DNA from: a virus
Taxonomy: Duplodnaviria > Caudoviricetes
IMG/VR virus record: IMGVR_UViG_3300020463_000022
Coordinates: 1-61,441 of that record
Length of the DNA stretch: 61,441 nucleotides
Direction: 5' to 3' (one strand)
Positions within the stretch are counted from its first letter, which is position 1. Every line of letters begins with the position of its first letter. This document shows positions 25,321 through 61,441 of this stretch, piece after piece. Made by a program: the position numbers and the translations under genes. A model generated the notes under the pieces. It ran no database searches and was not told the DNA's origin. It saw nothing but the letters and a program-made list of their open reading frames with translations.

Positions 25321-25324
25321 TAGT

Positions 25325-26011: not shown

Positions 26012-26013
26012 TT

Positions 26014-45310: not shown

Positions 45311-45311
45311 G

Positions 45312-48202: not shown

Positions 48203-48252
48203 ACATCAAAGGTAAAAAACGTTTATTAACAAAAAAATATATTTATTAACAA

Positions 48253-50233: not shown

Positions 50234-50874
50234 AACGCTAACCTCCTTTTATTTGTTTTCTTAAAATTTATCTTTTTTACCAACCAATGCTTAAAATGTC
50301 TTTGGTAACCCGTTAAGGTGTTAGAGACATTTCCTTCGGTAATTTGCCTTACAAAAAATTCTTCAAACAACTCATCAATCTGCTGATCATTTAATTTGTA
50401 ATTTTCTTTGACAGCATTATATACTCTACCGCCATGATATTGAATTTTGAAATCCTCTATATCTATATTATTTTCATTATTATCATTATTATCATTCTTG
50501 TTTGTTGCCCTTGGATCGTCTTTTGATTGTCCCTGGTTTGCCCCTTGTTCGCCCTCTTTTATTTTTTCACTTTGGTAATCATCATATTTTACAATGGTTA
50601 CGAGAGTATTTTTGTTTGTCCCTTTTGTAACTATTGTTTGATCCTTTTTTAATTTATTTAATGCCAGGCGTACTTGCTTAATTGAAAGGTCAGTATAGAC
50701 AGATATTTTTCTGATAGATGTAATGTGTTGTCCCCTTAAAACCTTAGTGTCAAACACAATATTATCTTTATGATTTGCTCTTAAAAGAAGAAACAAAAAA
50801 ACCCTTAAAACATTGCCATCTGAAAAGTAATTCCACTCTAGCAGTTTTCTATTTATCTTGACGTAACCCTCCAC
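50230..50874 (-). CDS. Replication initiator (lambda O/replisome organiser-like)
   Basis: GYVKINRKL...FLFLLLRAN...RGQ..TS..KIS HTH, low-complexity linker, C-terminal HFKHWL. Confidence 0.75.
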   Translation of the reverse strand: MEGYVKINRKLLEWNYFSDGNVLRVFLFLLLRANHKDNIVFDTKVLRGQHITSIRKISVYTDLSIKQVRLALNKLKKDQTIVTKGTNKNTLVTIVKYDDYQSEKIKEGEQGANQGQSKDDPRATNKNDNNDNNENNIDIEDFKIQYHGGRVYNAVKENYKLNDQQIDELFEEFFVRQITEGNVSNTLTGYQRHFKHWLVKKINFKKTNKRRLAF

Positions 50875-51421
50875 TCAGTTCTTTGATTTTTTGTTTTAAT
50901 TTAATATTTTCAGATTTCAAATCAACCATTATCATAGTTTGTCTTCTAAACATGGTTTTAAAAAGCGAAGAAGAACGCTTGTACTTGATCATCTTTTCTG
51001 CTATGGACTCTTCCCTATGGTCATCGTCTAAAAAGCCATCTGTGGCTTTTATACGGCTTTCTATAGCATCATAGTAGGATTTAATCTGTGGGTCGTATAA
51101 TAAATATACATCCTCTAACTGTTTTAGACCGTGCAAAACTGTAGCATGATCTTTTGAGGATTTTATTTTTTTATAACCAACTTTTGATTTTCCCTCAAAC
51201 AACCCCCCTACGCTTTCAAGTGGCAGGGAGGTATATTTGTAAAGAAAATAATAATATAAAGACCTTCTCCATACTAAAGGTAGTCTTCTAGAATTAATAT
51301 TTTCCCATACATCATAGTCTGTAACTATGCTATCTATAATATTGACAACCGTATCAACGGTCAATTTGGTCTTTTTAGATTTTTGAAATCTACCGCCTCT
51401 ACAAAATTTATACTTCGACAT
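50849..51421 (-). CDS. DnaA C-terminal (domain IV)-like DNA-binding protein
   Basis: SRR..LV..R...Y...YTSLPLESVG...KDHATVLHG. Confidence 0.75.
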   Translation of the reverse strand: MSKYKFCRGGRFQKSKKTKLTVDTVVNIIDSIVTDYDVWENINSRRLPLVWRRSLYYYFLYKYTSLPLESVGGLFEGKSKVGYKKIKSSKDHATVLHGLKQLEDVYLLYDPQIKSYYDAIESRIKATDGFLDDDHREESIAEKMIKYKRSSSLFKTMFRRQTMIMVDLKSENIKLKQKIKELSGGLRQDK

Positions 51422-51766
51422 CTAAAATGGTAAATCGTCTGCGACTTCTTCTTTTTGCTTACTTGCTGTAGAATTATTGTCATCTTTTAGGTCTTTCATA
51501 AACCAGGCAACAATACTATTGAAGTGTTTTACATTGCCTTTTGGATCAGTCCATTCTCTTCCGTTTATATTAATTCCAACCCTAACTTCTTGTCCGACCT
51601 TAAATTTGTCTAGCAACTGACATTTGTCTTTGTGAAATTCAAGCTGAATGTGTTGCGGATAGTCTTTGTCGTGGTCAGTTACCAATACAAATACTCTTTT
51701 TTGAAAACCATTACTTCCAAAGCTTTTAGTTTCTTCGATTAATTTAATTTTACCTTCTAATTCCAT
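51422..51766 (-). CDS. DUF3127-like single-stranded DNA-binding protein
   Basis: MELEGKI...FQKR.FV...YPQ...INGREW...HFNSI, with an acidic DDLPF tail. Confidence 0.88.
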   Translation of the reverse strand: MELEGKIKLIEETKSFGSNGFQKRVFVLVTDHDKDYPQHIQLEFHKDKCQLLDKFKVGQEVRVGININGREWTDPKGNVKHFNSIVAWFMKDLKDDNNSTASKQKEEVADDLPF

Positions 51767-51771
51767 TTAAT

Positions 51772-52485
51772 TTATATTATAGTATTTACAATCTTTTGTC
51801 CTGCTATAACTGACAGGTCAGTTAAAAACTCTCTACAGAGTTTTATCTTTTCATAAAGTTTTTCAACATCCTCTTCGTTGTATTCTATATCGAAAGACTT
51901 TATTCTATGTTCAGTTTCTATGTCATTAAACTGAAGATTATTTGTGATTTCGTTTTCAATTTCCATAGGCACATCAATCATTCCTGCCTTCCAGGAGAAA
52001 CGTCTGATTTCATCCTGAATGAGTTCAATTGGTGTGTCGGTTAGGCAATATATAACTTTACATTTTTTAGTTCCTGTTAAATCCATGTAGCCCTGCATCT
52101 GCCAGTAGTAATCTTTGTTTGGCAAACTCTCTTCATACATAGGAAAAGTCTGTAAGTTCCAACTTGACTTTATATCAATCAGTTCGTCTGCGTAGATATC
52201 AGGAGTTCCTGAGAGGTAAGTATTGGCATAACTTTTTTCGTTTTTAATATACTTCTTACCAATAAAGGTATTAAGCATCTCTATTGAGTCGTCCTCAACT
52301 ACCTTACCTTTCTCTAAAAATTTGCTTTGTATTTCTTTTGATCTACCAAAATAGATTTCTTTGTGCAATTCTTTTAAATAGGTTTTTGTCGTAACTGACA
52401 AAGGGTCTTTTTTTGACCTTGCGTTTACCATAAGCTTTCCAAGTGATGAACATCTGAAAAGATATGAATCAAAGTTTTTCTTCAT
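51772..52485 (-). CDS. Lambda-exonuclease/YqaJ-like nuclease
   Basis: RCSSLG, GTPD, IDIKSS, YYWQMQGYM. Confidence 0.85.
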   Translation of the reverse strand: MKKNFDSYLFRCSSLGKLMVNARSKKDPLSVTTKTYLKELHKEIYFGRSKEIQSKFLEKGKVVEDDSIEMLNTFIGKKYIKNEKSYANTYLSGTPDIYADELIDIKSSWNLQTFPMYEESLPNKDYYWQMQGYMDLTGTKKCKVIYCLTDTPIELIQDEIRRFSWKAGMIDVPMEIENEITNNLQFNDIETEHRIKSFDIEYNEEDVEKLYEKIKLCREFLTDLSVIAGQKIVNTII

Positions 52486-52970
52486 GATTCTTTATTTAAA
52501 ATGTAAGACAATGTTCCTTTACTGGATATATTGAAATGTTCCATAGTTTTTTTATAACTACCATACTTTTCATGAAAGGCTTTAACCTCTTCGTGGTTAT
52601 GTTTTTTAATAAAACTAGATGCGTGTATAGCCCTCTCTTTTCTTCTTTCAGACTCAACGTCATGGGCGTTTTGACTAGCAGTTCCTATATCTATGTTGTC
52701 GTAGTGATTGTTGGTGCAGTCATTATCTAAATGTCTAACCATGTATCCCTCTTGGTAAAGCTTTTCGCCATACTTTTGATACGCCTGTAAACGATGAACG
52801 CCAACATTACGATTTTTTCCTTCATGATCTCTAATTTTAAATCTTCTATATCCGTTTGTGTGTAGCCATCCAACTGGATTTTTTTTCTTTCCAATGACAA
52901 TACCCTCCTTAGTAACTCTATATCCTTTTTGATAGGCAGTTTTTTCGTTTTTATTGTATTTATATTCCAT
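52482..52970 (-). CDS. HNH homing endonuclease
   Basis: NGY...VHRL...VRHLDNDCTNNHYDNI...N. Confidence 0.88.
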   Translation of the reverse strand: MEYKYNKNEKTAYQKGYRVTKEGIVIGKKKNPVGWLHTNGYRRFKIRDHEGKNRNVGVHRLQAYQKYGEKLYQEGYMVRHLDNDCTNNHYDNIDIGTASQNAHDVESERRKERAIHASSFIKKHNHEEVKAFHEKYGSYKKTMEHFNISSKGTLSYILNKES

Positions 52971-53488
52971 TAATTAGGCAGTTTATATTCATATACAAGT
53001 TTTTTATTATCCCTGTCAACCGCTCCGAGATAAGAAACCTTGTTGTCTTTATCATATTCAAGTTTCCATTGAAGTTTCTTTAGTCTTCTTTGAAATTGAA
53101 AAGAGGATTCGTTTGGAAGAAAATTAATCCAAATAAAAGGGAAATCATAAAGTTCTCTGCCTATTCCCCAATTGAAACAGGCTCTTTTGAATGCGTCTGA
53201 CGCTTGTCCTTTTTCCTTTTCAGTTTTAGACTCAGTGCCTACGTCCTGTTTAGAAACCCATTCGCCACTTTCAGGGTCTTTGACTGACACAGTACAAAAT
53301 AAATTTCCATTAATTAGTTCGTAGTTTTTTTTCCATCCAAACTTTCCGTAAAGATCGTCAAGTATTTTCATGTCACATCTTGCGTCTTTGTAGGCAAGAA
53401 TTATAGCACCCTTATCGGTGGTTGATTGTACCCTGAAATCAATCTGATCTATCGTCAGGGGATTGTAAGTTATTTTTTGTTTTGTCAT
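52970..53488 (-). CDS. Rad52-like (Sak) single-strand annealing protein
   Basis: AYKDAR...KQDVG...EKGQASDAFKRA..NWGIGRELY. Confidence 0.88.
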   Translation of the reverse strand: MTKQKITYNPLTIDQIDFRVQSTTDKGAIILAYKDARCDMKILDDLYGKFGWKKNYELINGNLFCTVSVKDPESGEWVSKQDVGTESKTEKEKGQASDAFKRACFNWGIGRELYDFPFIWINFLPNESSFQFQRRLKKLQWKLEYDKDNKVSYLGAVDRDNKKLVYEYKLPN

Positions 53489-53912
53489 TTAAGTATGTAT
53501 TTAAATTAATTGCATTTATATTTAATAGTGATTGAATATTTTTGTTCAGATATTTTATTTCTGTTGTCATTTTATCGGTTAGCTTTATGTGACCAAATTT
53601 TATATCTTCCGAATACCTTTCTAATGTGTTTTGTTTATAGGTCAAGGCTAAACAATTTTCAATGTGTGTTGGATCATCCTCAAGGAAAAGATCAATAAGT
53701 TCGTTCTCCATTGGTCTATACATATTGCTATTTGTGTGATAAATTTCATAGTGATGATCTCCTGAAGTTTTAAGATACTTTTCAATTTTGAAAAGCTTTC
53801 CATATATAAAACTAAGTCTTCCAAAACTCATAGCCTCATAACCTTTATTTAAAAGCCTCTCAAATAAAATAGATATTTTATCTTTTCTGTATGCCTTGGA
53901 GATACCGCTCAT
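53439..53912 (-). CDS. Hypothetical protein
   Basis: 157-aa ORF. Confidence 0.65.
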   Translation of the reverse strand: MSGISKAYRKDKISILFERLLNKGYEAMSFGRLSFIYGKLFKIEKYLKTSGDHHYEIYHTNSNMYRPMENELIDLFLEDDPTHIENCLALTYKQNTLERYSEDIKFGHIKLTDKMTTEIKYLNKNIQSLLNINAINLNTYLNDKTKNNLQSPDDRSD

Positions 53913-54111
53913 ACCAAACTAAATCCTTTAAAGTTTTATCAAGTCTGTTCCTGAATTTTTTCTCTTTTATTTTCTCTCTCGACTTTTGCAGACAAAGGTT
54001 CATCATCGCTATGTGACAACTTATAATCTTTCCTCTGATTAAATTTTCTGTCTTTTTCTTTTTCCTTCTCTGTAGATATTTTTGGTAACTGAATAGTTTT
54101 ATTTTTATCAT
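53878..54111 (-). CDS. Small basic hypothetical protein
   Basis: MIKIKLFSY..., overlapped by the alternative-frame ORF 53939-54193. Confidence 0.45.
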   Translation of the reverse strand: MIKIKLFSYQKYLQRRKKKKTENLIRGKIISCHIAMMNLCLQKSREKIKEKKFRNRLDKTLKDLVWYERYLQGIQKR

Positions 54112-54327
54112 GGTTTGATTTTTTATGGTGTACATATGGCATTTGAGTCCATAGGTGCCACTCGTTTGAATCATCTAAATTTTCTTTACTCATGCTTAAA
54201 ATTTATGTTGATATTGAGGGGAGGGAGGAACCCCTCATATCAATCAACATTATTACTAACTAAAAATAAAATGAAACACTCCCTAATTTTTTAAGATTTT
54301 AAATCTACTAATAACTTGTTCATAAAC

Positions 54328-54510
54328 CTAATGTTTTGTAAACAAACTAAGTCTTGCGTGAAAAAGTTTTAGCAATGAATCAATGTCTTCCTGTGGTTGT
54401 AACGTAGCTAAAAGAGTCAGATACTTTACACAAGAATCAAAGTGCGATCCTTTTTTACACGATCTAATCACCTTTTCAGCCTTAATAAATAGCTCTGTTT
54501 TTCTTTTCAT
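54328..54510 (-). CDS. Hypothetical protein
   Basis: 60 aa, coupled to the upstream gene. Confidence 0.6.
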   Translation of the reverse strand: MKRKTELFIKAEKVIRSCKKGSHFDSCVKYLTLLATLQPQEDIDSLLKLFHARLSLFTKH

Positions 54511-54513
54511 AAT

Positions 54514-55113
54514 TTAAAATGTGCTTGACATTTTCTTCAAGCCACCTTTTGCATCATCCAAAAAATGACTAACATCACTATAAAATGTATATTTATTGGG
54601 ATCTCTCTCGTCTTTGTAAACATCATTAACGGAGACGTGAATTAAAAATTTGGTGTTCGTTGCACTCAGGGTAAAACTTACAACATAAATGTTATAAATA
54701 TATTCCTCCGCATAGGCACCCACCTCATCTTTAAATTTCATTAGATAAAAACCTCCTGCCTCTTTCTTAAAGTGTGACACTAATTGTGCTGAGAGACATT
54801 CTGCTCCATTTGCTATCTTATCGGTAGCTTTTAATTTAGAGCTTATCCCATTAACCACCTTTAGGTCTTTTAAAAAGTCTGCCAAATCCAAACCATGCCC
54901 ATACATATGACCATCATATTGTCTGTATAGATTTATAAGGGAGCCTTTAGGACTTCCATCCATTGTGTGACTTTTAACATATTTAGCTAAGGCTATATAA
55001 AACTTTTCAGCGTGTTTACTTATGTCTTTTTCTTTTGCGTTTTTAAGGCTATCAATATCTAATACCTCATTTCCATCTACTGGAATTACTCTTGTTAAAC
55101 TTCTTGTTCCCAT
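54514..55113 (-). CDS. Early hypothetical protein (MGTRS...YRQYDG family)
   Basis: MGTRSLT...LYRQYDG...G..L..FL...EEYIY. Confidence 0.75.
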   Translation of the reverse strand: MGTRSLTRVIPVDGNEVLDIDSLKNAKEKDISKHAEKFYIALAKYVKSHTMDGSPKGSLINLYRQYDGHMYGHGLDLADFLKDLKVVNGISSKLKATDKIANGAECLSAQLVSHFKKEAGGFYLMKFKDEVGAYAEEYIYNIYVVSFTLSATNTKFLIHVSVNDVYKDERDPNKYTFYSDVSHFLDDAKGGLKKMSSTF

Positions 55114-55239
55114 ATTAAATTTTATTAAATTTTAAGATTAATTAAAAAAGAAAGCTAATCGGAATGAAATGTCGCCACCGATTATGAAAAAATAGTACCA
55201 TCTTTTAAACATTTGCCTTATCTTACTTTCTCTTATTTA

Positions 55240-55800
55240 TTATATTTTGCTATATGATAGCACTTTAAACTCAGGCAGACTTATTGCATCAGGTGTTTTT
55301 GAATTTAAATCTCTTTTGCTTGAGCCTTTTACATACAGGTCATTAAATTCCTCTATGTCCTCACAATTATAAAAAATTGTGTCATCATCAACTACGTCTC
55401 CAACTCCTATTATATAGTTTTTGCAAATTTCATTGTTGTCCCTCCATTGGATTGTACAATCATATAGTGAGCCTTTTTCTTTTAATTGATACTGCTCACA
55501 ATAATCCCTTAAAACATCCCAATTAATTCCATGATTTGCATCGTGATTATTCTTGACTGCGTCTAATACTTCCATGCCCTTTTCATCGGTACAGGTGTAA
55601 CCAAGGGAGCGAATATCATCCACTCCCCATTCTATACATATAGTATTTTTTTCTTCTGAAACCTCTTCAAAGTGCCTCAAAAGTCTAATTAAGCCTTTAC
55701 ACACCCCCATATACTCGGATTTAGAATGGCTATCGTTTACCCAATCCCTGTCATCTTGAATGTCTTGGATTGCTCTTTTTAAGTCTTGTGTTGTTATCAT
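55240..55800 (-). CDS. Early hypothetical protein
   Basis: 186 aa, includes HDANHGINWD. Confidence 0.7.
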   Translation of the reverse strand: MITTQDLKRAIQDIQDDRDWVNDSHSKSEYMGVCKGLIRLLRHFEEVSEEKNTICIEWGVDDIRSLGYTCTDEKGMEVLDAVKNNHDANHGINWDVLRDYCEQYQLKEKGSLYDCTIQWRDNNEICKNYIIGVGDVVDDDTIFYNCEDIEEFNDLYVKGSSKRDLNSKTPDAISLPEFKVLSYSKI

Positions 55801-55818
55801 ATTAAATTGAATTTTTGT

Positions 55819-55850
55819 TAAAGATATACATTTAGTTCGAATCTACCAAA
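55819..55850 (-). promoter_or_regulatory. Bacteroidota sigma70-type promoter TTTG-N20-TATCTTTA
   Basis: -33/-7 boxes 20 nt apart. Shares TTTGGTAGATTCGAAC with the 60055-60086 promoter. Confidence 0.7.
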
Positions 55851-55852
55851 TA

Positions 55853-56182
55853 CTAATTATCTGATTGTTTCTTATGGGCATAGTCACACGCATCGTTATA
55901 CAGGTTTCTATTGACCTTATAGACAAAATCAACAAAGTAGTTATTCCATTCTACCTGTGATTCAAGTTCAGCGTTCTGTTCTTGCAATCTTTCCTCATCG
56001 TATGCATCAGAAGATTTTGACCCATCGTCTTGATTCATTATATCTAAATCATCCGCATCAGCTTGTGCCATCCACTCTTCATCTGTCCACCTTTCACAAT
56101 TTGGATTGTCAATATGAAACCCTCCGAGATTCATATAAAATTCCTTAATTAACGAAACCTTTTTACTCATAATTTTACTCAT
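55853..56182 (-). CDS. Acidic early protein
   Basis: 109 aa, D/E-rich. Preceded by a hammerhead substrate site. Confidence 0.7.
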   Translation of the reverse strand: MSKIMSKKVSLIKEFYMNLGGFHIDNPNCERWTDEEWMAQADADDLDIMNQDDGSKSSDAYDEERLQEQNAELESQVEWNNYFVDFVYKVNRNLYNDACDYAHKKQSDN

Positions 56183-56191
56183 AACTTTTAA

Positions 56192-56230
56192 TTTTAAGAT
56201 TAATAATAGACGTTATATAATACTATATAA
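56192..56230 (-). promoter_or_regulatory. Hammerhead substrate site 7 (C17 = 56209)
   Basis: UUAUAUA-GUAU-UAUAUAA-CGUC/UAUUAUUAAUCUUAAAA. Confidence 0.75.
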
Positions 56231-56262
56231 AAAAAGGGACGATCTTTCGCCCCCTCTTTTTT
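56229..56262 (-). terminator. Terminator-like hairpin plus U-tract
   Basis: AAAAAAGAGGGGGCGAAAGAUCGUCCC-U7 on the - strand. Confidence 0.6.
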
Positions 56263-56278
56263 CCGCTATCTTCCTATA

Positions 56279-56461
56279 TTATGTGGAAGATGTGTCCCAT
56301 ACCTTGAAGTTAAATTTTTGCTTGTCTGATTTGTTTTGGTATTTACCAAGTACGTCAAACAATGCATCAAGACATTCTCCATCGGTCATTTCATCGCCAT
56401 CTGTAGTGACAACCTTAGACACGTCATTAAATAGATTTACAAATTCTTTTTCCCAGTTCAT
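56279..56461 (-). CDS. Early hypothetical protein
   Basis: 60 aa, ATGA overlap. Confidence 0.65.
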   Translation of the reverse strand: MNWEKEFVNLFNDVSKVVTTDGDEMTDGECLDALFDVLGKYQNKSDKQKFNFKVWDTSST

Positions 56462-56697
56462 AGCGTAGGTATTACTTCTTGTTTCTTTTTTCCAAAGTAG
56501 TAGTACGCCCCTCCATCATTGCCCTCATCATCTGATTGAGACAATATTGCAGTTCCATCTGTAAATTCAATAAGTAATGGGTTTTTATACCAGTAATCTC
56601 CCATTTCTTTTTTTGTAAGATATCTTACATGACTTATAGTTTTACCTACAAGTAATTTTCTTGCGTGGTTTTGCCACTTAATTTCTGTTTTACTCAT
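56458..56697 (-). CDS. Early hypothetical protein (SDDEGNDGG)
   Basis: Likely start is MSKTEIKW at 56697, not 56805. Confidence 0.7.
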   Translation of the reverse strand: MSKTEIKWQNHARKLLVGKTISHVRYLTKKEMGDYWYKNPLLIEFTDGTAILSQSDDEGNDGGAYYYFGKKKQEVIPTL

Positions 56698-56706
56698 AAT
56701 ATTTAA

Positions 56707-56750
56707 TTTAAGATTAATAATAGACGTTGAGGGATAGTCTCCTACCCCTC
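56707..56750 (-). promoter_or_regulatory. Hammerhead substrate site 6 (C17 = 56723)
   Basis: GAGGGGUAG-GAGA-CUAUCCCUC-AACGUC/UAUUAUUAAUCUUAAA. Confidence 0.78.
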
Positions 56751-56755
56751 TCGTT

Positions 56756-57022
56756 TTAATTTCCTTCAGCAAACTGAACGAAATCATCTTGATATGAATT
56801 CTCAAGATAGTTTTTTAACTTGGGCATTGTTGTCTTAACGTGCCTAGCTAAATATTTAAATGATTCTCTTTTACTTGGCTCTTTAATTTCTAAAGAACCA
56901 TTTTCGTCAAAGTAAAAATTAAGATTTAAGTTAGTCATCTCTTCGTTTACTTTATGTGTTATCCATATTGACACCAACTGATTATCGTGGTCAAAGGATG
57001 TACTAAATTTTGAATGTAACAT
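56756..57022 (-). CDS. Early hypothetical protein
   Basis: 88 aa. Confidence 0.65.
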   Translation of the reverse strand: MLHSKFSTSFDHDNQLVSIWITHKVNEEMTNLNLNFYFDENGSLEIKEPSKRESFKYLARHVKTTMPKLKNYLENSYQDDFVQFAEGN

Positions 57023-57023
57023 A

Positions 57024-57224
57024 TTATTGGATTTTAAAAATTATACTCTCTACTATCTTGTTCGTTGAAGAATCAAATAAATCTTCTTCTACATGCTTTA
57101 TCCGATGAACATCAGAATCCTCATGGAATCTAAAGTTAACATCTACATCTTCCAAAGTTCTGTTGTTTAATTTTAAATCTTTTTCTATCCTTGATAGAAA
57201 TCTTTTTATTTCACTTGCTTTCAT
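57024..57224 (-). CDS. Early hypothetical protein
   Basis: 66 aa. Confidence 0.7.
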   Translation of the reverse strand: MKASEIKRFLSRIEKDLKLNNRTLEDVDVNFRFHEDSDVHRIKHVEEDLFDSSTNKIVESIIFKIQ

Positions 57225-57233
57225 AATATTAAA

Positions 57234-57272
57234 TTTTAAAATTAGTAATAGACGTTATATAATATTATATAA
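57234..57272 (-). promoter_or_regulatory. Hammerhead substrate site 5 (C17 = 57251)
   Basis: UUAUAUA-AUAU-UAUAUAA-CGUC/UAUUACUAAUUUUAAAA. Confidence 0.75.
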
Positions 57273-57303
57273 AAAAATGAGAGGTAGAAAAATCTACCCC
57301 CCA
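57271..57303 (-). terminator. Terminator-like hairpin plus U-tract
   Basis: UGGGGGGUAGA-UUUU-UCUACCUCUCA-U7. Confidence 0.65.
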
Positions 57304-57317
57304 TCTGAAAAACTAAT

Positions 57318-57827
57318 CTAATCGCTAATATTGATATTAAGTTTCCACCACTCAACATCTCTTCTTGTGTAGGAGGGATGTCGACTAGGAGATACATAAA
57401 CCTTTCTACCAACCCATTTATTTAAATCTAAATAAGAGTAAAAGATTTGAATTGAAAGAGGTATTTCTTTTAAACCCCTGTTGGTTGCCATAGCAAGTCT
57501 TGATAAAGAATGCCAATCCATCCTTGCTTTGACCATTTCAGATTTCCACCCCAAATCATTGCAAAAATCTAAAGCATACTTGTCACACCTAAATTCAGCC
57601 AAACAACTTGGTTTGATTCTTTGGTCTATTATGTGTTTAATTTCGTGTAGACAAACAAAAAATCTATCAAGATTATTTGGACGTGGAATTTTGATTTCTC
57701 TTTGTTTAAAGTATGCTCTTCCACAGGATGTTACCGACCACTTTTTTAATTTAATGTTGTGTTCGTTCATCAGTGATTCAATAATCTGATGTGCATCTTT
57801 ACGATTGAATCTTTTTTTGTATTTCAT
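57318..57827 (-). CDS. SprT-like/zincin metalloprotein
   Basis: CGRAY...I.I...FVCLHEIKH...AEFRCD. Confidence 0.7.
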   Translation of the reverse strand: MKYKKRFNRKDAHQIIESLMNEHNIKLKKWSVTSCGRAYFKQREIKIPRPNNLDRFFVCLHEIKHIIDQRIKPSCLAEFRCDKYALDFCNDLGWKSEMVKARMDWHSLSRLAMATNRGLKEIPLSIQIFYSYLDLNKWVGRKVYVSPSRHPSYTRRDVEWWKLNINISD

Positions 57828-57836
57828 ATAATATTA

Positions 57837-57880
57837 TTTAAAGTTAGTAATAGACGTTGGAGGGAAATACATCCCTCCAA
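57837..57880 (-). promoter_or_regulatory. Hammerhead substrate site 4 (C17 = 57853)
   Basis: UUGGAGGGA-UGUAUU-UCCCUCCAA-CGUC/UAUUACUAACUUUAAA. Confidence 0.8.
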
Positions 57881-57885
57881 TCATA

Positions 57886-58848
57886 TTAAACAAAAACTCT
57901 TCCTAAACCATTGTCAGCAGTAACCTTGCCACCCAATCCTGTGGATTTTTGTGCAACGATATTACTAAACTGGTTGAAGATAGATTGGTCAAGTCTTTGA
58001 AGACTACCAGTCAATTTAGACTCTTGTCTTGAATTCTCTGACCCTCCTTTGTGTGTGCTATAATGCGTAACACCACTAAATAAACCCCATAGTGTTTTAC
58101 CCTTATAACTCATTTCTTCAGCGACTGACTTTGTGACTTTCTCACAAATATTAATCTTCCTTGTACTATACTTATCTTGGGCAATAGCCATAGAAAGTTT
58201 AGTATCAACTCCACTAATTTTTTCAATCACTTTTTGTGCAAAGGAATCATCAATCTCAATGTTTGCCATCTTATTAAAAGTCTCATACAAGCTTGTATCA
58301 GACTCTTCAAGATTTTCCAATGCTCTTAATGATACATCGATTAGTCTCCTCATATTGCTCGTATGACGTGCAGAGGATTCTAATGATTTTTTCATTGCTG
58401 AGAATTGATTGTCACATGAAATTGTAACTCCAGTAGTACCCCATCTTAATGAGGTGCTACCATCATGAGAATTAATAGCGGTTGCATAACGCTTTATTGT
58501 ATCTTGACCAACTTTGAGCGGTTCCAGTTCCAACTGCATTACAACTCTTCGACCTCCTTTGAAAATCTGCCCTTGAGTTATTGGTTTCCCAATTACATCG
58601 CCGACATTCAAAACAAGTTCGGCGAGTTCAGAATTTTGGAATATTTCGTATTGATCAGAAAATGCACCAAAACAATCTTTGTTATCCAAACGTACAGCAC
58701 CATAAAAATTGGTGTTGAATGTTTCAATTCCGTGATTGAATTGTAATGGTTTTTTCTCTACTTTCCAATTCATACCAAATTTGTCCAAAGTATTTTCTAC
58801 TTCTGACTTGCTAATAAACTCTTGATTTTTTGTAATAGAATTTTTCAT
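57886..58848 (-). CDS. DUF932/DUF945-like phage/plasmid protein
   Basis: W.VEK.PL...Y.IFQN...GGRRV...NSHDGS...CDNQ...TLWGLFSGVT.Y..H. Confidence 0.85.
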   Translation of the reverse strand: MKNSITKNQEFISKSEVENTLDKFGMNWKVEKKPLQFNHGIETFNTNFYGAVRLDNKDCFGAFSDQYEIFQNSELAELVLNVGDVIGKPITQGQIFKGGRRVVMQLELEPLKVGQDTIKRYATAINSHDGSTSLRWGTTGVTISCDNQFSAMKKSLESSARHTSNMRRLIDVSLRALENLEESDTSLYETFNKMANIEIDDSFAQKVIEKISGVDTKLSMAIAQDKYSTRKINICEKVTKSVAEEMSYKGKTLWGLFSGVTHYSTHKGGSENSRQESKLTGSLQRLDQSIFNQFSNIVAQKSTGLGGKVTADNGLGRVFV

Positions 58849-58857
58849 TTTATATAA

Positions 58858-58901
58858 TTTTAAGATTAGTAATAGACGTTGGGAGGTTTAACCCCTCCCA
58901 A
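58858..58901 (-). promoter_or_regulatory. Hammerhead substrate site 3 (C17 = 58875)
   Basis: UUGGGAGG-GGUUAAA-CCUCCCAA-CGUC/UAUUACUAAUCUUAAAA. Confidence 0.8.
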
Positions 58902-58916
58902 TCACAAACAAATCAA

Positions 58917-59249
58917 TCAAGAAACTTTTGCTGATTTTCGCTTTGTAAAATGTAACAATAACGTGCTACATAGTAGTCCTGATAAAGAATCCTGATCTAA
59001 TGCATCAACTAATATTTTGTCAAAAGTAAAATCAATTAAATGCAGTTTATCATCTTTAATGTAAAATGAAAATTCATCTTCCCAATCATTGTCTTCATAG
59101 ATTGCTGTAATTTCAAATGAATTTACGTCTACCTGTTTTACCTTGACTGATGATGTTTTGTCTCCAGCTAGTTCTAAGGCTATAGCTAGTGTTTGACTTA
59201 CTTTTTTAGCAATAATTAACGTTTCAGTAATTGTGTACATAGTGTTCAT
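58917..59249 (-). CDS. Early hypothetical protein
   Basis: 110 aa. Confidence 0.7.
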   Translation of the reverse strand: MNTMYTITETLIIAKKVSQTLAIALELAGDKTSSVKVKQVDVNSFEITAIYEDNDWEDEFSFYIKDDKLHLIDFTFDKILVDALDQDSLSGLLCSTLLLHFTKRKSAKVS

Positions 59250-59259
59250 AATATTTAAG

Positions 59260-59300
59260 TTAAGATTAGTAATAGACGTTGGAGGGATTGCTCCCTCCGA
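59260..59300 (-). promoter_or_regulatory. Hammerhead substrate site 2 (C17 = 59275)
   Basis: GGAGGGA-GCAA-UCCCUCC-AACGUC/UAUUACUAAUCUUAA. Confidence 0.8.
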
Positions 59301-59306
59301 CCATAA

Positions 59307-59672
59307 TTAAATAGAATCTTCTACTCTATCAAGTAATTCAGAAAGTTCGATTAAATCACTTGGTTTGTATACTCCTGATTCGTGTAAATCAGTCATAAGT
59401 CTGTCATACCAGTAACCATCAAACAAACCGAATAACATATTTGTCATTTCAGATTGGTAATCCTTGGTTGTTCTATCAGCTGATTGGATCATGTTCAATA
59501 CCAATGTCCTGTCATCCCCTGAAAAAATTTCGTGCCTGTCAAATCTTCTGTGGGTATACTCTTTCGTTGGATTCATATGTTTTTGAATCGTTCGAAGATA
59601 ACCAGTATGGGTGTTAGACTGCATTTTTTCCATTTTTTCAAACCATCTGTTGTTTAAACTATTTAAGTTCAT
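59307..59672 (-). CDS. First early gene, hypothetical
   Basis: 121 aa. Its AUG lies 27 nt after the ribozyme cleavage site. Confidence 0.72.
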   Translation of the reverse strand: MNLNSLNNRWFEKMEKMQSNTHTGYLRTIQKHMNPTKEYTHRRFDRHEIFSGDDRTLVLNMIQSADRTTKDYQSEMTNMLFGLFDGYWYDRLMTDLHESGVYKPSDLIELSELLDRVEDSI

Positions 59673-59692
59673 TTTAATTAAATTTTAAGATT

Positions 59693-59828
59693 AGTAATAG
59701 ACGCAGAGGTAATAATACCTCTTTGCCAACGTTTCGACCTACCGATGTTTCACAACATTGGAATGAAAGAAACTAAACGCTCAAATCTAAGGTCTCGTCA
59801 GCATTACTCGATCTGATTAGCTTTCATC
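59693..59828 (-). ncRNA. Type I hammerhead ribozyme
   Basis: Minus strand reads AGUAAUG-CUGACGA-GACCU-[49 nt]-AGGUC-GAAA-CG...AGAGGUA/UACCUCU...CGUC/UAUUACU. All core nucleotides are present (C3-A9, G10.1-C11.1, G12-A15.1, GUC17). Predicted cleavage is between 59700 and 59699. Confidence 0.9.
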
Positions 59829-59849
59829 AATCTTTAAATATATATGTAT

Positions 59850-60050
59850 AGACGGCATTTAGCCGTAGTCCCTGTCTCCAACTGGAGGAGGATGTAGTCA
59901 ACATTGGGAGCGAGCGCTCGACCACCATGCCTATTTTGGCAATCGTTGATAAGAAGTCTGAGTGTGTGTCTCACAACTCTTGGGCTGTTAACCTGACTGC
60001 TTCTCTTCAGCCGTCTTCAGTAATCTACAGGTAAGCACCCGTCCAAAAGA
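59850..60050 (-). ncRNA. Putative structured RNA domain upstream of the hammerhead
   Basis: GC-enriched with no listed ORF. Nested helices AGACGGC/GCCGUCU, UCAACgAUUG/CAAUGUUGA, UGCC/GGCA, CUCCA/UGGAG and GAGU-UGUG/CACA-C-ACUC. Confidence 0.5.
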
Positions 60051-60054
60051 CAAC

Positions 60055-60086
60055 CAAATATATATATAAGGTTCGAATCTACCAAA
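60055..60086 (-). promoter_or_regulatory. Early promoter TTTG-N20-TATATTTG
   Basis: Perfect Bacteroidota -33/-7 consensus; predicted TSS near 60050. Confidence 0.8.
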
Positions 60087-60456
60087 CCACAATGATATTA
60101 TTTTACATTGTTGGTACATGGGCATCTTGTATTATACGCTCTCCAGTTAACGACCTTTAATTTGTAACTACCTTATATTCAGTTAGATAAAATTCTACAT
60201 GACTTTACTTTACTGATCTTATAGTAGTAGTGTAGTGTGATTATCACTTAGTGTAACTTAGTTGGTATTAGGGTTATTGTCTTACAACTAGTATTACTTG
60301 ATAGTTGTTCTAATAGGGTCGTATATCGTAACAAAAAGGTAAAAACTTTGTGTAACTGGATACTAAAACATAGGTGCAGTAGGTCTGACAAACCACTTTT
60401 CTGTGTGCGTGTGCGTTCTATATTATATATATAACCCAAATACTCAATATTTCTAG

Positions 60457-60530
60457 TGTGGCGTAAAAATGTATCATTTAAGTGTATTATATATATAGTG
60501 TGCAGCTAAATGATACAAAAACCCGCCACA
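60457..60530. repeat. Interrupted inverted repeat around a TA tract
   Basis: TGTGGCG..TGTATCATTTA-[26 nt]-TAAATGATACA..CGCCACA. Confidence 0.75.
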
Positions 60531-60548
60531 TGTTTCTTATATTCTTCT

Positions 60549-60556
60549 TATCTTTG
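60549..60556 (+). promoter_or_regulatory. -7 box TATCTTTG
   Basis: 22 nt before the ATG at 60579, at the head of the + strand operon. Confidence 0.6.
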
Positions 60557-60578
60557 TATCAAATAAAAGCTCTGTTAA

Positions 60579-60731
60579 ATGATCAATATAGTTATACAAC
60601 CTCCATACGCTCTTATGGTAGGTTTAGAAGGCGTTGTAAACGAAGAAAAAAAGGTTTCTGGAGTTATAATTCATCTATTATTAGTTTCGATAGAATACAA
60701 TTGGGATAATGGTGAGTCAATTTCTATTTGA
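60579..60731 (+). CDS. Small hypothetical protein (50 aa)
   Basis: MINIVIQPPYALMVGLEG..., read directly from the sequence. Confidence 0.55.
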   Translation: MINIVIQPPYALMVGLEGVVNEEKKVSGVIIHLLLVSIEYNWDNGESISI

Positions 60732-60972
60732 AGCTTCTGTTTTTGGAATTATATTTTTAATACTAAAAAAAATATGGAGTCCCTCTGTGAAATATTGGAT
60801 GGGACAAATAGTTATTGGAATTAACATATTTGCCTGCCTACTCTATGTGTATGGAATTTATGGTGGCACAATGACTTTAGGACTTGGGTCCTCTAAAATA
60901 CTTCTACACGCTATAGTAGCCATTATAATACATACTCTTTTTACAATACAATCAAGCAATGAACATGAGTGA
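60709..60972 (+). CDS. Three-TM membrane protein
   Basis: 87 aa, hydrophobic. Confidence 0.65.
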   Translation: MVSQFLFEASVFGIIFLILKKIWSPSVKYWMGQIVIGINIFACLLYVYGIYGGTMTLGLGSSKILLHAIVAIIIHTLFTIQSSNEHE

Positions 60973-61051
60973 ACATGTGGTTATTTTATCTCTAGCATTT
61001 GGTTGGATCATTTTTATAGCCATAGGCTGGTTATGGGAAAGAAAATCATAA
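60965..61051 (+). CDS. Single-TM micropeptide (28 aa)
   Basis: MSEHVVILSLAFGWIIFIAIGWLWERKS, overlapping both neighbours. Confidence 0.45.
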   Translation: MSEHVVILSLAFGWIIFIAIGWLWERKS

Positions 61052-61182
61052 AGTGTAGTCAGTGTGACAAAGAGTTTGAAAACGGATATGAATATAGATT
61101 ACATTGGGAGATAAAGCATTTTTATCCATATCTTAAGAAAAACTCTTTTGATATTGAAAGAGCTAAAAAAGATAAGAAATAA
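61033..61182 (+). CDS. C2H2 zinc-finger microprotein (49 aa)
   Basis: C-SQ-C-DKE-F-ENGYE-Y-RL-H-WEIK-H. Confidence 0.7.
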   Translation: MGKKIIKCSQCDKEFENGYEYRLHWEIKHFYPYLKKNSFDIERAKKDKK

Positions 61183-61223
61183 TATAATTGATTACTTTTA
61201 CATTACTTTAATAAAATTTAATT

Positions 61224-61441
61224 ATGATAGAAAAAAACATAGACTTCCATGATGATGCCAAGTCGTCTTTAATAAATGGAATCAATAAAGTTGCTGATGC
61301 TGTAAGCTCTACACTTGGAGCGGCCGGTACGACTGTTATACTAGAGGATCAAACCGGTAGACCTCACATAACTAAAGACGGGGTTACCGTTGCAAAAACA
61401 ATAAACTTATCAGATCCAGTAGAACACCTTGCGGCAGAGAT
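61224..61441 (+). CDS. groEL: GroEL 5' part (continues at nt 1)
   Basis: MIEKNIDFHDDAKSSLINGINKVADAVSSTLGAAGTTVIL...ITKDGVTVAK. Confidence 0.95.
   Translation, partial: MIEKNIDFHDDAKSSLINGINKVADAVSSTLGAAGTTVILEDQTGRPHITKDGVTVAKTINLSDPVEHLAAE
61327..61441. repeat. Terminal overlap, copy 2
   Basis: Matches 1-115 with 2 mismatches. Confidence 0.95.

What the first reader, a model, noticed from the sequence alone, without database searches (positions are those of the whole stretch)
56192..59828. One hammerhead core plus six core-less substrate sites: a candidate ribozyme that dices the early polycistronic mRNA
SEEN: the early - strand leader holds one complete hammerhead. It has a stem I arm AGUAAUG (59808-59802), core CUGACGA (59801-59795), stem II GACCU/AGGUC, GAAA (59735-59732) and a stem III arm ACGUUGG (59732-59726), and it should cut its own CGUC/UAUUACU at 59700. 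The substrate sequence AACGUC/UAUUAYUAA recurs, without any CUGANGA core, at C17 = 59275, 58875, 57853, 57251, 56723 and 56209. Every copy is intergenic, on the transcribed strand, 25-26 nt before an AUG (27 nt for the cis site). The arm ACGUUGG pairs 7/7 with CCAACGU at three remote sites, and with UCAACGU or UAACGU through G-U pairs at the others, but only 3-4 bp with its own CUGCGU. The stem I variant (UAUUAUU) keeps pairing through G-U. KNOWN: hammerheads cleave after NUH (GUC is optimal), leave 5'-OH and 2',3'-cyclic phosphate ends, and work in trans when split into enzyme and substrate strands. Natural ones are almost always single-turnover cis elements. INFERENCE: after self-cleavage, the released ~350-nt leader acts as a multiple-turnover RNA endonuclease (or acts by long-range cis pairing). 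It would process the early transcript into one- or two-gene mRNAs, an RNA-only counterpart of RNase III processing of T7 early mRNA. I know of no described phage system like this.
Basis: partly seen in the sequence, partly recalled or inferred. Interest (0 to 1): 0.97.

Follow-up and report, generated by a model that had tools for sequence, protein, structure and literature searches.

The report
One hammerhead ribozyme, many cut sites
A marine phage carries one hammerhead ribozyme at the head of its early operon and a matching 20-letter cut-site tag before each early gene, and in a diverged relative the ribozyme arm and all the tags have changed together, so one RNA enzyme may cut many sites.

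Summary
The window is a complete 61 kb phage of marine Flavobacteriia. It has exactly one hammerhead on either strand (C3 59801, C17 59700; stems I/II/III of 7/5/4 bp). None of 300 shuffles has one.

It also has six core-less copies of hairpin + ACGUC|UAUUAYU AAYYUWAA, each 25-26 nt before an early start codon. Rfam's hammerhead models do not detect this ribozyme.

Comparison adds four points.
- Stem III is extended by an abutting hairpin, and 39 of 39 sites in five lineages have such a hairpin.
- A further helix (Ib) pairs the tag's 3' part, so the invariant 20-nt block is exactly the enzyme-complementary stretch.
- An 18-bp helix links the 5' flank to loop II.
- A diverged relative (G006; first gene 75% identical) has arm AGUAUAU and eight sites ACGUC|AUAUACU. 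That is three compensatory changes, present in every copy, including the orthologous site before the DUF932 gene. G006 also has a complete type III hammerhead at the next junction.

I rate a genuine cis hammerhead at about 0.85. I rate the remote tags as its substrates, in trans or by long-range cis pairing, at about 0.55. No RNA data exist. Homogenisation of the repeats by recombination is the main rival.

The parts
60055..60086 (-). Candidate host promoter P1: TTTG (60086-60083), 20-nt spacer, TATATTTG (60062-60055). It would start the leader at about 60050.
   Evidence: Read. The Bacteroidota consensus TTTG / TAnnTTTG is recalled, not looked up. Kept in L073 (TATATTTG) and weaker in L015/L020 (TATACTTG). 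Inference only.
59843..60050 (-). Structured leader domain of several hairpins, upstream of the ribozyme. Function unknown.
   Evidence: RNAalifold on 5 sequences gives 54 predicted pairs, 5 of them with compensatory changes. Also present in the diverged clade G006. No Rfam family.
59829..59838 (-). Ib arm UUUAAAGAUU. It pairs with the tag's 3' part AAUCUUAAA.
   Evidence: RNAalifold predicted part of this pairing (6 pairs, AGAUUG with UAAUCU); the extension to 9 bp is my own reading. 9 pairs, 97% of cells paired in 4 sequences. G006 has a perfect UUAAGAUU 5 nt upstream of its stem I arm. As a free duplex it is weak: -3.8 kcal/mol, and 3.3% of 61427 windows do as well.
59810..59827 (-). Strand a (AUGAAAG CUAA UCAGAUC) of an 18-bp helix with loop II. 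Either a pseudoknot clamp or an alternative fold.
   Evidence: 18 pairs, 100% paired. One compensatory pair (U-A to C-G) and two one-sided changes that keep pairing. Absent in G006.
59802..59808 (-). Stem I arm AGUAAUG (enzyme strand).
   Evidence: It is AGUAAUA in sister lineages and AGUAUAU in G006.
59795..59801 (-). Core C3-A9, CUGACGA.
   Evidence: Invariant in the 4 clade-1 sequences. CUGAUGA in G006.
59736..59794 (-). Stem II: GACCU 59794-59790 with AGGUC 59740-59736. Its 49-nt loop holds strand a' (59787-59763) and a small hairpin.
   Evidence: pair 10.2-11.2 is A-U in the window and U-A in the three other lineages.
59726..59735 (-). G12 A13 A14 and the stem III arm: A15.1 at 59732, ACGU 59732-59729, and UGG 59728-59726, which is specific to this lineage.
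59705..59722 (-). Distal hairpin of stem III (AGAGGUA uuau UACCUCU), abutting the cis site.
59684..59704 (-). Cis site GCGUC|UAUUACU AAUCUUAAA. C17 = 59700, and the predicted cut is between 59700 and 59699. The ATG is at 59672.
59260..59298 (-). Remote site 1: hairpin 59298-59281 plus the tag; C17 = 59275.
58860..58900 (-). Remote site 2: hairpin 58900-58880 plus the tag; C17 = 58875. It lies before the DUF932 gene, and the orthologous site in G006 carries the derived triplet.
57838..57879 (-). Remote site 3: hairpin 57879-57858 plus the tag (variant AACUUUAA); C17 = 57853.
57236..57306 (-). Remote site 4: terminator-like hairpin with a U run (57306-57275), A/U palindrome hairpin 57271-57256, then the tag; C17 = 57251.
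56708..56750 (-). Remote site 5: hairpin 56750-56729 plus the tag with UAUUAUU (G-U with the arm); C17 = 56723.
56194..56253 (-). Remote site 6: GC hairpin with a U run (56253-56236), A/U palindrome hairpin 56229-56214, then the tag with UAUUAUU; C17 = 56209.

Best explanation
The early leftward operon of this marine Flavobacteriia-type phage begins with a non-coding leader of about 350 nt. Its 3' third is a type I hammerhead of unusual build.

The enzyme strand carries three guide segments:
- the Ib arm UUUAAAGAUU;
- the stem I arm AGUAAUG;
- the stem III arm ACGU, plus UGG in this lineage.
All irregularities lie on the enzyme strand: an 18-bp helix between the 5' flank and loop II, and bulges.

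The substrate strand is a plain 20-nt tag, ACGUC|UAUUAYU AAYYUWAA, which directly follows a hairpin that stacks on the short stem III. The first tag lies just after the enzyme and is cut in cis. This frees the leader and gives gene 1 a 27-nt leader with a 5'-OH end.

Six further tags, each with its own hairpin and each 25-26 nt before an early start codon, carry no core. I propose that the same core cuts them, either as the released leader RNA or while still tethered to the transcript. The operon would then be diced into one- or two-gene mRNAs. Each would end in hairpin-AACGUC with a cyclic phosphate and begin with a standard A/U-rich 5'-OH leader.

Shown here: the anatomy, one core per genome, conservation, and covariation of the arm with all tags.

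Inferred: self-cleavage, cleavage at the remote tags, trans versus tethered action, turnover, and the effect on mRNA stability or translation.
For: (1) The motif is not a chance match. There is one hit in the window and none in 300 shuffles. All core letters are present, along with the A15.1-U16.1 pair and C17.

(2) It is conserved in three sister lineages found with the site motif alone. 96.2% of 208 pair cells are paired, against 28-44% when partners are slid. There are compensatory pairs in stem II and in helix a/a'.

(3) The diverged clade G006 (first gene 75% and DUF932 61% identical; 7 of 29 ORFs match the window) keeps the leader domain, the core, GAAAC and eight tags. Its stem I arm is AGUAUAU and all eight tags read AUAUACU. 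That is three compensatory positions. The clade-1 model finds this element at 29.2 bits, E 0.005, with stem I marked as covarying.

(4) The tag before DUF932 is orthologous in both clades and differs by exactly that triplet. So the array predates the split and the remote sites changed in place.

(5) Within clade 1, site-specific variants (U at 1.6; CU for UC at 1.10-1.11) persist across lineages. Homogenisation is therefore slow, yet positions 1.1-1.3 never vary among the 23 distinct remote contexts of clade 1 or the 7 of clade 2.

(6) The invariant block runs from 16.4 to 1.15. That is exactly stem III + C17 + stem I + Ib, and the flanks vary.

(7) 39 of 39 sites in five lineages have a hairpin ending 0-2 nt before A16.4, as at the cis site. 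Hairpin sequences differ and G-U pairs occur. In the control, 87 of 500 random windows do so.

(8) Position 15.5/16.5 is U:A in the window (6 of 6 remote sites) and A:U in G006 (5 of 7 remote sites plus the cis site).

(9) In G006 the junction after the last tag holds a complete type III hammerhead behind the same kind of hairpin and before an A/U leader (Rfam RF00008, 45.4 bits, E 7.9e-8). So hammerhead cutting at these junctions is used by this phage group.

(10) The core and the repeats occur together, or not at all, in the genomes examined.
Against: - No cleavage or RNA end has been seen.
- Rfam's hammerhead models give no hit, even at E up to 10.
- Only two clades exist. The three stem I changes may be one event on each side, since UAU to AUA is a 3-nt inversion. 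The 4-sequence covariation statistics are weak: 29 of 500 shuffles do as well.
- The cis site is itself one copy of the repeat, so complementarity of all copies follows from descent. DNA contigs show recombination at the repeats, which could spread a variant without selection at remote sites.
- In G006 the pair next to the core in stem II is U.C, unless an extra U and a 42-nt insertion are allowed.
- After self-cleavage the enzyme keeps its own hairpin-GCGUC in stem III, and a remote substrate would have to displace it.
- Predicted binding of the released enzyme to the remote sites is only -3.2 to -6.7 kcal/mol in a model without pseudoknots, and the minimum-energy dimers are only partly hammerhead-like.
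- The Ib duplex alone is no better than 3.3% of random windows.
- The extended 7-bp stem III arm is not kept in sister lineages, where G15.5 faces A16.5 at most sites.
- Helix a/a' crosses stems I and II and might be an inactive fold.
- G006's extra complete hammerhead shows that a trans enzyme is not the only solution this phage group uses.
Confidence: 0.55

Rival explanations
1. The hammerhead acts in cis only. It cuts once, at the first tag, to release the structured leader RNA and set the 5' end of gene 1. The other tags are copies of a cassette boundary (hairpin plus a standard 5' UTR) spread and kept alike by recombination, as with the PeSL cassettes of T4-type phages. They serve mRNA stability, translation start or an unknown protein, and the ribozyme does not cut them to any useful extent.
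For: - Gene cassettes come and go exactly at the repeats in related DNA contigs. Joints include 58859>59260, with 23 shared letters, plus 57024>57227, 57321>57824, 57880>58859 and 59298>59684.
- The phage has a Rad52-family recombinase.
- Natural hammerheads are described as cis elements (PMC6765202, passages).
- A hammerhead before the first early ORF is known in haloviruses (PMC3088659).
- The enzyme keeps its own product strand after cutting, and predicted trans binding is weak.
- The distance to the ATG is fixed at 25-27 nt, which fits a role in translation.
Against: - Positions 1.1-1.3 changed in all eight copies of G006, in step with the enzyme arm. They never vary among remote copies, although other tag positions do vary and those variants persist across lineages.
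- A 5' UTR or stability role does not explain the invariant ACGUC, or a hairpin abutting it at 39 of 39 sites.
- It also does not explain why the invariant block ends exactly where enzyme pairing ends.
- If the complex forms, it rebuilds the same active site as in cis.
Confidence: 0.28
2. The leader RNA pairs with the tags as an antisense regulator of translation or decay of the early genes. The hammerhead chemistry matters only at the cis site.
For: There are 19-23 potential base pairs between leader and tag, including Ib, which covers +8 to +16 of each 5' UTR, close to the start codon. The arm and all tags covary.
Against: The remote pairing is the same as the cis pairing, including the GUC triplet and the abutting hairpin. 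Cleavage would therefore be expected once the complex forms. GUC is invariant at all 30 distinct remote contexts, which pure antisense pairing does not require.
Confidence: 0.07
3. There is no ribozyme. The repeat is a DNA-level or protein-level signal (a promoter, a site for a phage or host RNase, or a recombination site), and the hammerhead-like motif in the leader is a coincidence.
For: Rfam does not detect the ribozyme. Across some 250,000 scanned windows, a few chance hammerhead-like motifs are expected. The related phage phi38:1 has a different repeated motif before its genes and no hammerhead.
Against: - The core, GAAAC and all helices are conserved in five lineages, with compensatory changes in stems I and II and in a/a'.
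- No shuffle reproduces the motif.
- The tag does not match the Bacteroidota promoter consensus (by eye, recalled consensus). Sigma-70-like sites are not enriched: 21 found against 24.5 expected.
- The hairpins are too short for RNase III (recalled requirement).
- G-U pairs in the hairpins point to the RNA level.
Confidence: 0.05

Closest known systems
Clustered complete hammerheads flanking genes in prophages (Perreault et al. 2011, PMC3088659; passages read)
   Same: Hammerhead chemistry at intergenic junctions of phage polycistronic RNA. The proposed role is processing into single-gene mRNAs. Base-paired loop II contacts are common.
   Different: There, every junction has its own complete ribozyme. 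Here there is one core per genome and 6-8 core-less substrate tags. Only G006 adds one complete type III copy.
HHphage of haloviruses HF1/HF2 (same paper)
   Same: A hammerhead in the early region, 13 nt before the first ORF of a polycistronic early transcript, whose mapped 5' end lies at the cleavage site.
   Different: It is a single cis element. No repeated substrate copies are described.
Discontinuous hammerhead in mammalian Clec2 3' UTRs (Martick et al. 2008, as described in review PMC6765202; passages read)
   Same: Enzyme and substrate strands lie far apart on one RNA. According to the review, this example fuelled the search for natural trans-cleaving ribozymes.
   Different: It has one substrate site, in a eukaryotic 3' UTR. 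It is not an array of targets.
PeSL promoter-terminator cassettes of T4-type phages (PMC2839356, PMC4122927; search listing and start of abstracts only)
   Same: Near-identical intergenic repeats with a stem-loop between small early genes of unknown function. Cassettes are shuffled at the repeats.
   Different: PeSLs carry an early promoter. Here no promoter consensus is seen, and the repeat is complementary to a ribozyme and covaries with it.
RNase III processing of T7 early mRNA (recalled, not looked up)
   Same: An early polycistronic transcript is cut at intergenic signals into stable mRNAs that end in hairpins.
   Different: That is a host protein enzyme cutting inside long hairpins. Here there are short hairpins and a single-stranded GUC site that pairs with an RNA.
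Engineered trans-cleaving hammerheads and RNase P (PMC6412130, abstract in search listing; PMC6765202)
   Same: Guide arms I and III select a GUC target. RNase P RNA is the natural ribozyme that the review describes as acting in trans.
   Different: Trans hammerheads are laboratory designs. No natural multi-target one turned up in my searches.

Membership tests
Hammerhead ribozyme (type I) | Core C3 U4 G5 A6 N7 G8 A9, and G12 A13 A14 | tested here: met
   CUGACGA at 59801-59795 and GAAA at 59735-59732. Invariant in 4 clade-1 sequences. CUGAUGA and GAAAC in G006.
Hammerhead ribozyme (type I) | A15.1-U16.1 pair and cleavage after N-U-H (H17 not G) | tested here: met
   A59732 pairs with U59701 and C17 is 59700. 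GUC is present at all 39 sites.
Hammerhead ribozyme (type I) | Three helices around the core with no mispair next to the core; stem I open | tested here: met
   Window: stems I/II/III of 7/5/4 bp, with G-U, G-C and A-U next to the core. In G006 the pair 10.1-11.1 reads U.C unless an extra U is allowed, so the feature is not met there as it stands.
Hammerhead ribozyme (type I) | Helices supported by compensatory change | tested here: met
   Stem II has 1 compensatory pair (A-U/U-A). Stem I has 3 between clades. Stem III pair 15.4-16.4 is U-A/U-G. There are few independent events: 29 of 500 shuffles match the 4-sequence score.
Hammerhead ribozyme (type I) | Match to the curated covariance models (Rfam RF00163, RF00008 and others of the clan) | tested here: not met
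   No hit at gathering score in the window. No hit at E up to 10 in 59500-60100 and 59650-60650, or at E up to 1 in 44800-61441. The 49-nt loop II and the bulged stem III probably cost the score. The compact type III copy in G006 is found at 45.4 bits.
Hammerhead ribozyme (type I) | Tertiary contact between loop II and stem I | tested here: inconclusive
   The 18-bp helix a/a' between the 5' flank of stem I and loop II has 1 compensatory pair. G006 instead has a 5-nt bulge, AAGUA, in stem I. Whether either is sterically compatible was not modelled.
Hammerhead ribozyme (type I) | Mg2+-dependent self-cleavage giving 5'-OH and 2',3'-cyclic phosphate ends | not testable with these tools
   No RNA run holds the region.
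Trans-acting / multi-site ribozyme (proposed kind) | One enzyme, several core-less sites complementary to all guide arms | tested here: met
   One enzyme hit per genome. There are 6-8 remote sites per genome whose invariant 20-nt block equals the paired stretch.
Trans-acting / multi-site ribozyme (proposed kind) | Guide arm and remote sites covary | tested here: met
   Window clade: AGUAAUR with UAUUAYU. G006: AGUAUAU with AUAUACU in 8 of 8 sites, including the orthologous DUF932 site. Two clades only.
Trans-acting / multi-site ribozyme (proposed kind) | Core-dependent RNA ends at the remote sites | not testable with these tools
   No RNA data.
PeSL-like regulatory cassette | Repeat holds an early promoter as well as a stem-loop, and mediates cassette shuffling | tested here: inconclusive
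   The stem-loop and shuffling are met. No Bacteroidota-type promoter is seen in the tag by eye (recalled consensus), and the sigma-70-type scan shows no enrichment. That scan does not cover Bacteroidota promoters.

The most novel reading that the evidence does not exclude
The leader is a natural, guide-directed, multiple-turnover RNA endonuclease, the first of the small self-cleaving classes to act on many targets. Because every 5' fragment ends in hairpin-ACGUC>p and every 3' fragment begins with the same 5'-OH tag, the same active site could also run the reverse reaction. It could join the leader, or any upstream cassette, to any downstream cassette. That would be ribozyme-made leader-to-body junctions, or RNA-level reshuffling of early messages. 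The tag would then be a portable 20-nt expression signal that lets newly acquired gene cassettes plug into the operon.
Probability: 0.08. Interest if true: 0.97.

Novelty: new variant of a known kind. Interest (0 to 1): 0.86.

Why it matters
Small self-cleaving ribozymes are described as cis, single-turnover elements, and most genomic examples have no known role. The review read (PMC6765202) says that natural trans-cleaving ribozymes are being searched for.

This locus offers a concrete, cheap test case.
- It has one enzyme of about 150 nt.
- Its target is a 20-nt tag with an abutting hairpin.
- There are six natural targets on one 4.4-kb RNA.
- A second clade provides natural compensatory arm and tag variants, which give ready-made specificity controls.

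If the remote sites are cut, this would show an RNA-only counterpart of RNase III or RNase E processing of phage early mRNA. It would give a role to a hammerhead in a lytic marine phage. It would also suggest how repeated boundary sequences let phages swap early gene cassettes while keeping them expressed. Even if only cis cutting holds, the ribozyme is a new architectural variant that the curated models miss: an 18-bp flank-to-loop II helix, a stem I split by a junction, and a stem III built from 4 bp plus a stacked hairpin.

Tried and rejected
Rfam scans. I scanned the whole window at gathering score and three sub-regions at permissive E-values. There was no hammerhead hit. The only hits were chance-level: snoRNA and miRNA models, and FopS at E 0.2.

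crAss-like virion RNA polymerase promoter idea.
- The 2391-aa ORF matches thrombospondin-type repeats in the PDB, not the phi14:2 polymerase.
- The phi14:2 preprint reports no common motif upstream of early transcripts (10.1101/2020.03.07.982082, passages).
- I dropped the idea.

ECF-sigma or Bacteroidota promoter reading of the tag. I rejected it by eye, because there is no conserved -33/-35 element: the upstream sequences are variable hairpins.

RNA evidence. The look-up of sequencing runs listed no RNA holder. The four runs laid were DNA contigs, so they say nothing on expression or RNA ends.

Search for more clades.
- Besides the window lineage, they gave three sister lineages and one diverged clade (G006/L175).
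- L074 and L165-L172 are chance matches.
- Of 80 GroEL-anchored loci (889,449 bases), only the known relative L082 has the hammerhead. There were also two loose hits with 3-bp stems.
- Records G001-G005 have no hammerhead-like match beyond chance and no leader motif. G001, G003 and G004 are incomplete, so absence there means little.
- No repeated 11-mers were found upstream of GroEL in 7 more distant loci, apart from one 3-copy word in L088.

Other checks.
- MAFFT misaligned the G006 ribozyme (A5). I did not use that alignment and relied on the covariance-model alignment instead.
- The phage has no RtcB, so there is no encoded ligase for such ends.
- Supplementary figures of PMC3088659 (architectures of clustered and variant hammerheads) could not be seen. 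They might show a split or shared-core arrangement that I am unaware of.
- My statement that no natural multi-target hammerhead is in print rests on searches and on passages of PMC3088659, PMC10085705 and PMC6765202 only.

Full report
WHAT THE WINDOW IS

The window is a whole virus record of 61,441 bases, estimated 99% complete. Three matches place it with phages of marine Flavobacteriia.
- Its primase/helicase is 60% identical to those of Flavobacterium phages.
- Its 2391-aa virion protein is 35-40% identical over the first 45% of its length to proteins of Cellulophaga phages phi38:1 and phi40:1 and of Maribacter and Tenacibaculum phages.
- A GroEL-like gene runs across the two ends of the record.

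The late genes lie on the + strand. The - strand carries the replication genes and, at its start (59672 down to about 55850), a string of small genes of unknown function. One of these is a DUF932 protein. No phage RNA polymerase was recognised.

- The 14-mer ACGTCTATTAYTAA occurs seven times at up to 2 mismatches. All copies are on the - strand. None of 100 shuffles reaches seven.
- The ATG follows C17 after 27 bases at the cis site and 25 or 26 at the others.
- A descriptor scan written for this purpose finds one hammerhead in the two strands of the window and none in 300 dinucleotide-preserving shuffles.
- By my rough arithmetic such a motif is still expected by chance in a few of many thousand windows. 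The case therefore has to rest on comparison, not on the motif alone.
- Rfam does not see the ribozyme at any threshold tried.

THE RIBOZYME IS CONSERVED AND HAS AN UNUSUAL BUILD

A scan of viral contigs with the site motif alone returned 65 loci. Four of them, from three contigs, carry two or more copies of the motif, and all three contigs have the core upstream of the first site.

With the metagenome scan (whose pattern contained the core and is therefore biased) there are four distinct sequences: the window, L075, L073 and L015. On their alignment, 52 proposed pairs are 96.2% paired, against 28-44% when the partners are slid. Two pairs show compensatory change: stem II 10.2-11.2, and one pair of helix a/a'. 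With four sequences this is weak statistically, since 29 of 500 shuffles do as well.

- Stem III. It is 4 bp (ACGU with GCGU or ACGU), then a 6-nt bulge on the enzyme side, then a 7-9 bp hairpin that abuts the site.
- Helix a/a'. RNAalifold found an 18-bp helix between the 18 nt just upstream of the stem I arm and the 5' half of loop II. It crosses stems I and II. It is therefore either a pseudoknot clamp of the kind Perreault et al. describe in shorter form (PMC3088659) or an alternative fold.
- Helix Ib. The stretch just upstream of strand a (UUUAAAGAUU) pairs with the tag's 3' part (AAUCUUAAA). RNAalifold predicted 6 of these pairs, and I extended the helix to 9 by hand.

All bulges and insertions lie on the enzyme strand. 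The substrate strand pairs without interruption from 16.4 to 1.15, apart from C17.

THE REMOTE TAGS LOOK LIKE THE SUBSTRATE HALF OF THE CIS SITE

Among 23 distinct remote contexts of the window clade, the letters from A16.4 to 1.9 are invariant except for Y at 1.6. That position pairs with G either way. Conservation fades after 1.15 and before 16.4. The conserved block is thus the stretch that pairs with the enzyme.

Every one of 39 sites in five lineages has a predicted hairpin ending 0-2 nt before A16.4.
- 32 are G+C-rich hairpins of differing sequence.
- 7 are a 16-nt A/U palindrome that follows a terminator-like hairpin with a U run.
- One hairpin contains G-U pairs that would be C-A mismatches on the other strand.
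- In the control, 87 of 500 random windows end in a hairpin.

A remote site bound to the enzyme would therefore copy the cis structure. The 6-nt bulge would simply be replaced by a strand break.

THE DECISIVE COMPARISON

A scan with a motif of the upstream leader domain found contig L173 (record G006, 58.5 kb, 91% complete). Its early region was fetched as L174. Its proteins are well diverged from the window's: the first early gene is 75% identical, DUF932 61%, and others 27-64%. Seven of 29 ORFs have a match.

G006 keeps the following:
- the leader domain;
- a core CUGAUGA;
- GAAAC;
- a stem III arm ACGUAA;
- a perfect Ib arm UUAAGAUU;
- eight tags, each behind a hairpin and 25-31 nt before an ATG.

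Its stem I arm is AGUAUAU, and all eight tags read ACGUC|AUAUACU AAUCUUAA. Three positions have changed on both sides, with pairing kept, in the cis site and in all seven remote sites. The covariance model built on the window clade finds this element as its only significant new hit (29.2 bits, E 0.005) and aligns stem I as covarying.

The tag before the DUF932 gene is orthologous in the two clades and differs by exactly this triplet. So the array is older than the split.

Within the window clade, site-specific variants (U at 1.6, CU for UC at 1.10-1.11) have persisted through the splitting of four lineages. This argues against fast homogenisation. A second, weaker case is position 15.5/16.5. 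It is U:A in the window (6 of 6 remote sites) and A:U in G006 (5 of 7 remote sites plus the cis site). The sister lineages have G facing mostly A.

Finally, the junction after the last tag in G006 and in L175 carries a complete, compact type III hammerhead. It sits behind the same kind of hairpin and 30 nt before an ATG (RF00008, 45.4 bits, E 7.9e-8, just under the gathering score of 48.5). No such copy is present in the window or its sister lineages.

WHAT SPEAKS AGAINST CUTTING AT THE REMOTE SITES

- Nothing shows cleavage.
- The cis site is one member of the repeat family, so all copies match the arms by descent.
- DNA contigs of four runs show cassettes gained and lost exactly at the repeats, and the phage has a Rad52-type recombinase. 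A variant could therefore spread by recombination.
- The three stem I changes could be one small inversion on each side.
- In G006 the pair next to the core in stem II is U.C. A GACC/GGUC stem like the window's can be drawn only with an extra U after A9 and a 42-nt two-hairpin insertion.
- After self-cleavage the enzyme keeps its own hairpin-GCGUC>p in stem III, and a remote substrate must displace it.
- With a/a' masked, predicted gain on binding the released enzyme is -3.2 to -6.7 kcal/mol, and the minimum-energy dimers are only partly hammerhead-like.
- Ib as a free duplex (-3.8 kcal/mol) is matched by 3.3% of all 14-nt windows.
- The window's 7-bp stem III arm is not conserved. It can also pair with the core itself (GCUGACG with CGUUGGC), a possible inactive fold.

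ALTERNATIVES WEIGHED

- A promoter reading fails. Nothing is conserved upstream of the tag except a hairpin of variable sequence, and sigma-70-like sites are not enriched (21 found, 24.5 expected). A good Bacteroidota-type promoter (TTTG, 20 nt, TATATTTG; consensus recalled) lies at 60086-60055, in front of the whole leader.
- RNase III is unlikely because the hairpins are only 6-9 bp (requirement recalled).
- A protein or translational role for the tag cannot be excluded. It would not, however, explain the invariant ACGUC, the abutting hairpin, the limits of the invariant block, or the covariation with the arm.
- More distant relatives lack both the ribozyme and the repeats.
- phi38:1 has a different repeat (TAAACACTATCAAAA) before many genes and no hammerhead.

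VERDICT

- A genuine cis-cleaving hammerhead of a new architectural variant: about 0.85.
- The remote tags are its substrates, in trans or while tethered: about 0.55.
- Main rival, a cis-only ribozyme with recombination-spread cassette boundaries: about 0.28.

Known relatives of the idea are the arrays of complete hammerheads in prophages and the halovirus early-leader hammerhead (PMC3088659). One core serving many core-less sites did not turn up in my searches, and a 2019 review presents natural trans-cleaving small ribozymes as something still being sought (PMC6765202).

Noticed in passing
window 59843-60050 (- strand): A structured, conserved non-coding domain of about 200 nt lies between the candidate promoter and the ribozyme. 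RNAalifold predicts 54 pairs, 5 of them with compensatory changes. It has no Rfam family. Its middle part is mosaic: L075 carries the G006-type version. After self-cleavage it would be released together with the enzyme. Its role is unknown.
   Followed up: partly
window 60458-60529: A 72-nt near-perfect palindrome (GTGGCGGG...CGCCAC around a TATATATATAAT centre) lies in the gap between the divergent operons. It is conserved in L073. It may be an operator, an origin or a bidirectional element. It gave only chance-level miRNA/snoRNA hits in Rfam.
   Followed up: no
L174 5933-5987 (= G006:C1:41932-41986) and L175 3150-3204: A complete, compact type III hammerhead (UCUGUC|GAUAGG...CUGAUGA GUCC GAAA GGAC GAAAC AGA) lies at the intergenic junction after the last tag of the diverged clade. 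It scores 45.4 bits on RF00008, just under the gathering score of 48.5.
   Followed up: partly
L175 3733-3765: A match to the Rfam DUF805b RNA (RF02914) at 42.7 bits, above its gathering score of 35.6, about 550 nt downstream of that type III hammerhead.
   Followed up: no
window 56179-59703, as seen in DNA contigs of runs X5, X6, X10, X19: Related phages differ by whole gene cassettes whose ends fall in the repeated tags. For example, 58859>59260 skips 400 bases, with 23 letters shared by both sides, and 57024>57227 removes the 66-aa gene. This is modular shuffling like that at the PeSLs of T4-type phages.
   Followed up: partly
window 57256-57271 and 56214-56229: Two junctions use a 16-nt A/U palindrome (UAUAUARUAUUAUAUA) behind a terminator-like hairpin with a U run, in place of a G+C hairpin. 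This subtype accounts for 7 of 39 sites and is absent from G006.
   Followed up: partly
window 56687-56760 (+ strand) and L174 2454-2522 (- strand): Two weak matches (31.9 and 27.3 bits, E 0.2 and 0.48) to the Bacteroidetes FopS sRNA family lie antisense to two of the junctions. They are probably a generic resemblance of an A/U stretch plus a hairpin.
   Followed up: no
L080 (Cellulophaga phage phi38:1, NC_021796.1) 11973-29672, - strand: The motif ACACTATCA occurs 11 times on the - strand, 9 of them just before gene starts and mostly as TAAACACTATCAAA, often overlapping the upstream stop codon. My descriptor finds no hammerhead. This phage also encodes an RtcB-type 'tRNA splicing ligase' (gp030). 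The window phage has no RtcB.
   Followed up: partly
window 61224-61441 and 3-1490 (+ strand): A GroEL-like chaperonin gene is split by the ends of the record, so the genome is circularly permuted or circular.
   Followed up: partly
window 26871-34046 (+ strand): A 2391-aa virion protein (phrog_14478) has a central run of thrombospondin type 3-like calcium-binding repeats and an OmpA-like stretch. It is not a crAss-type RNA polymerase by sequence.
   Followed up: no
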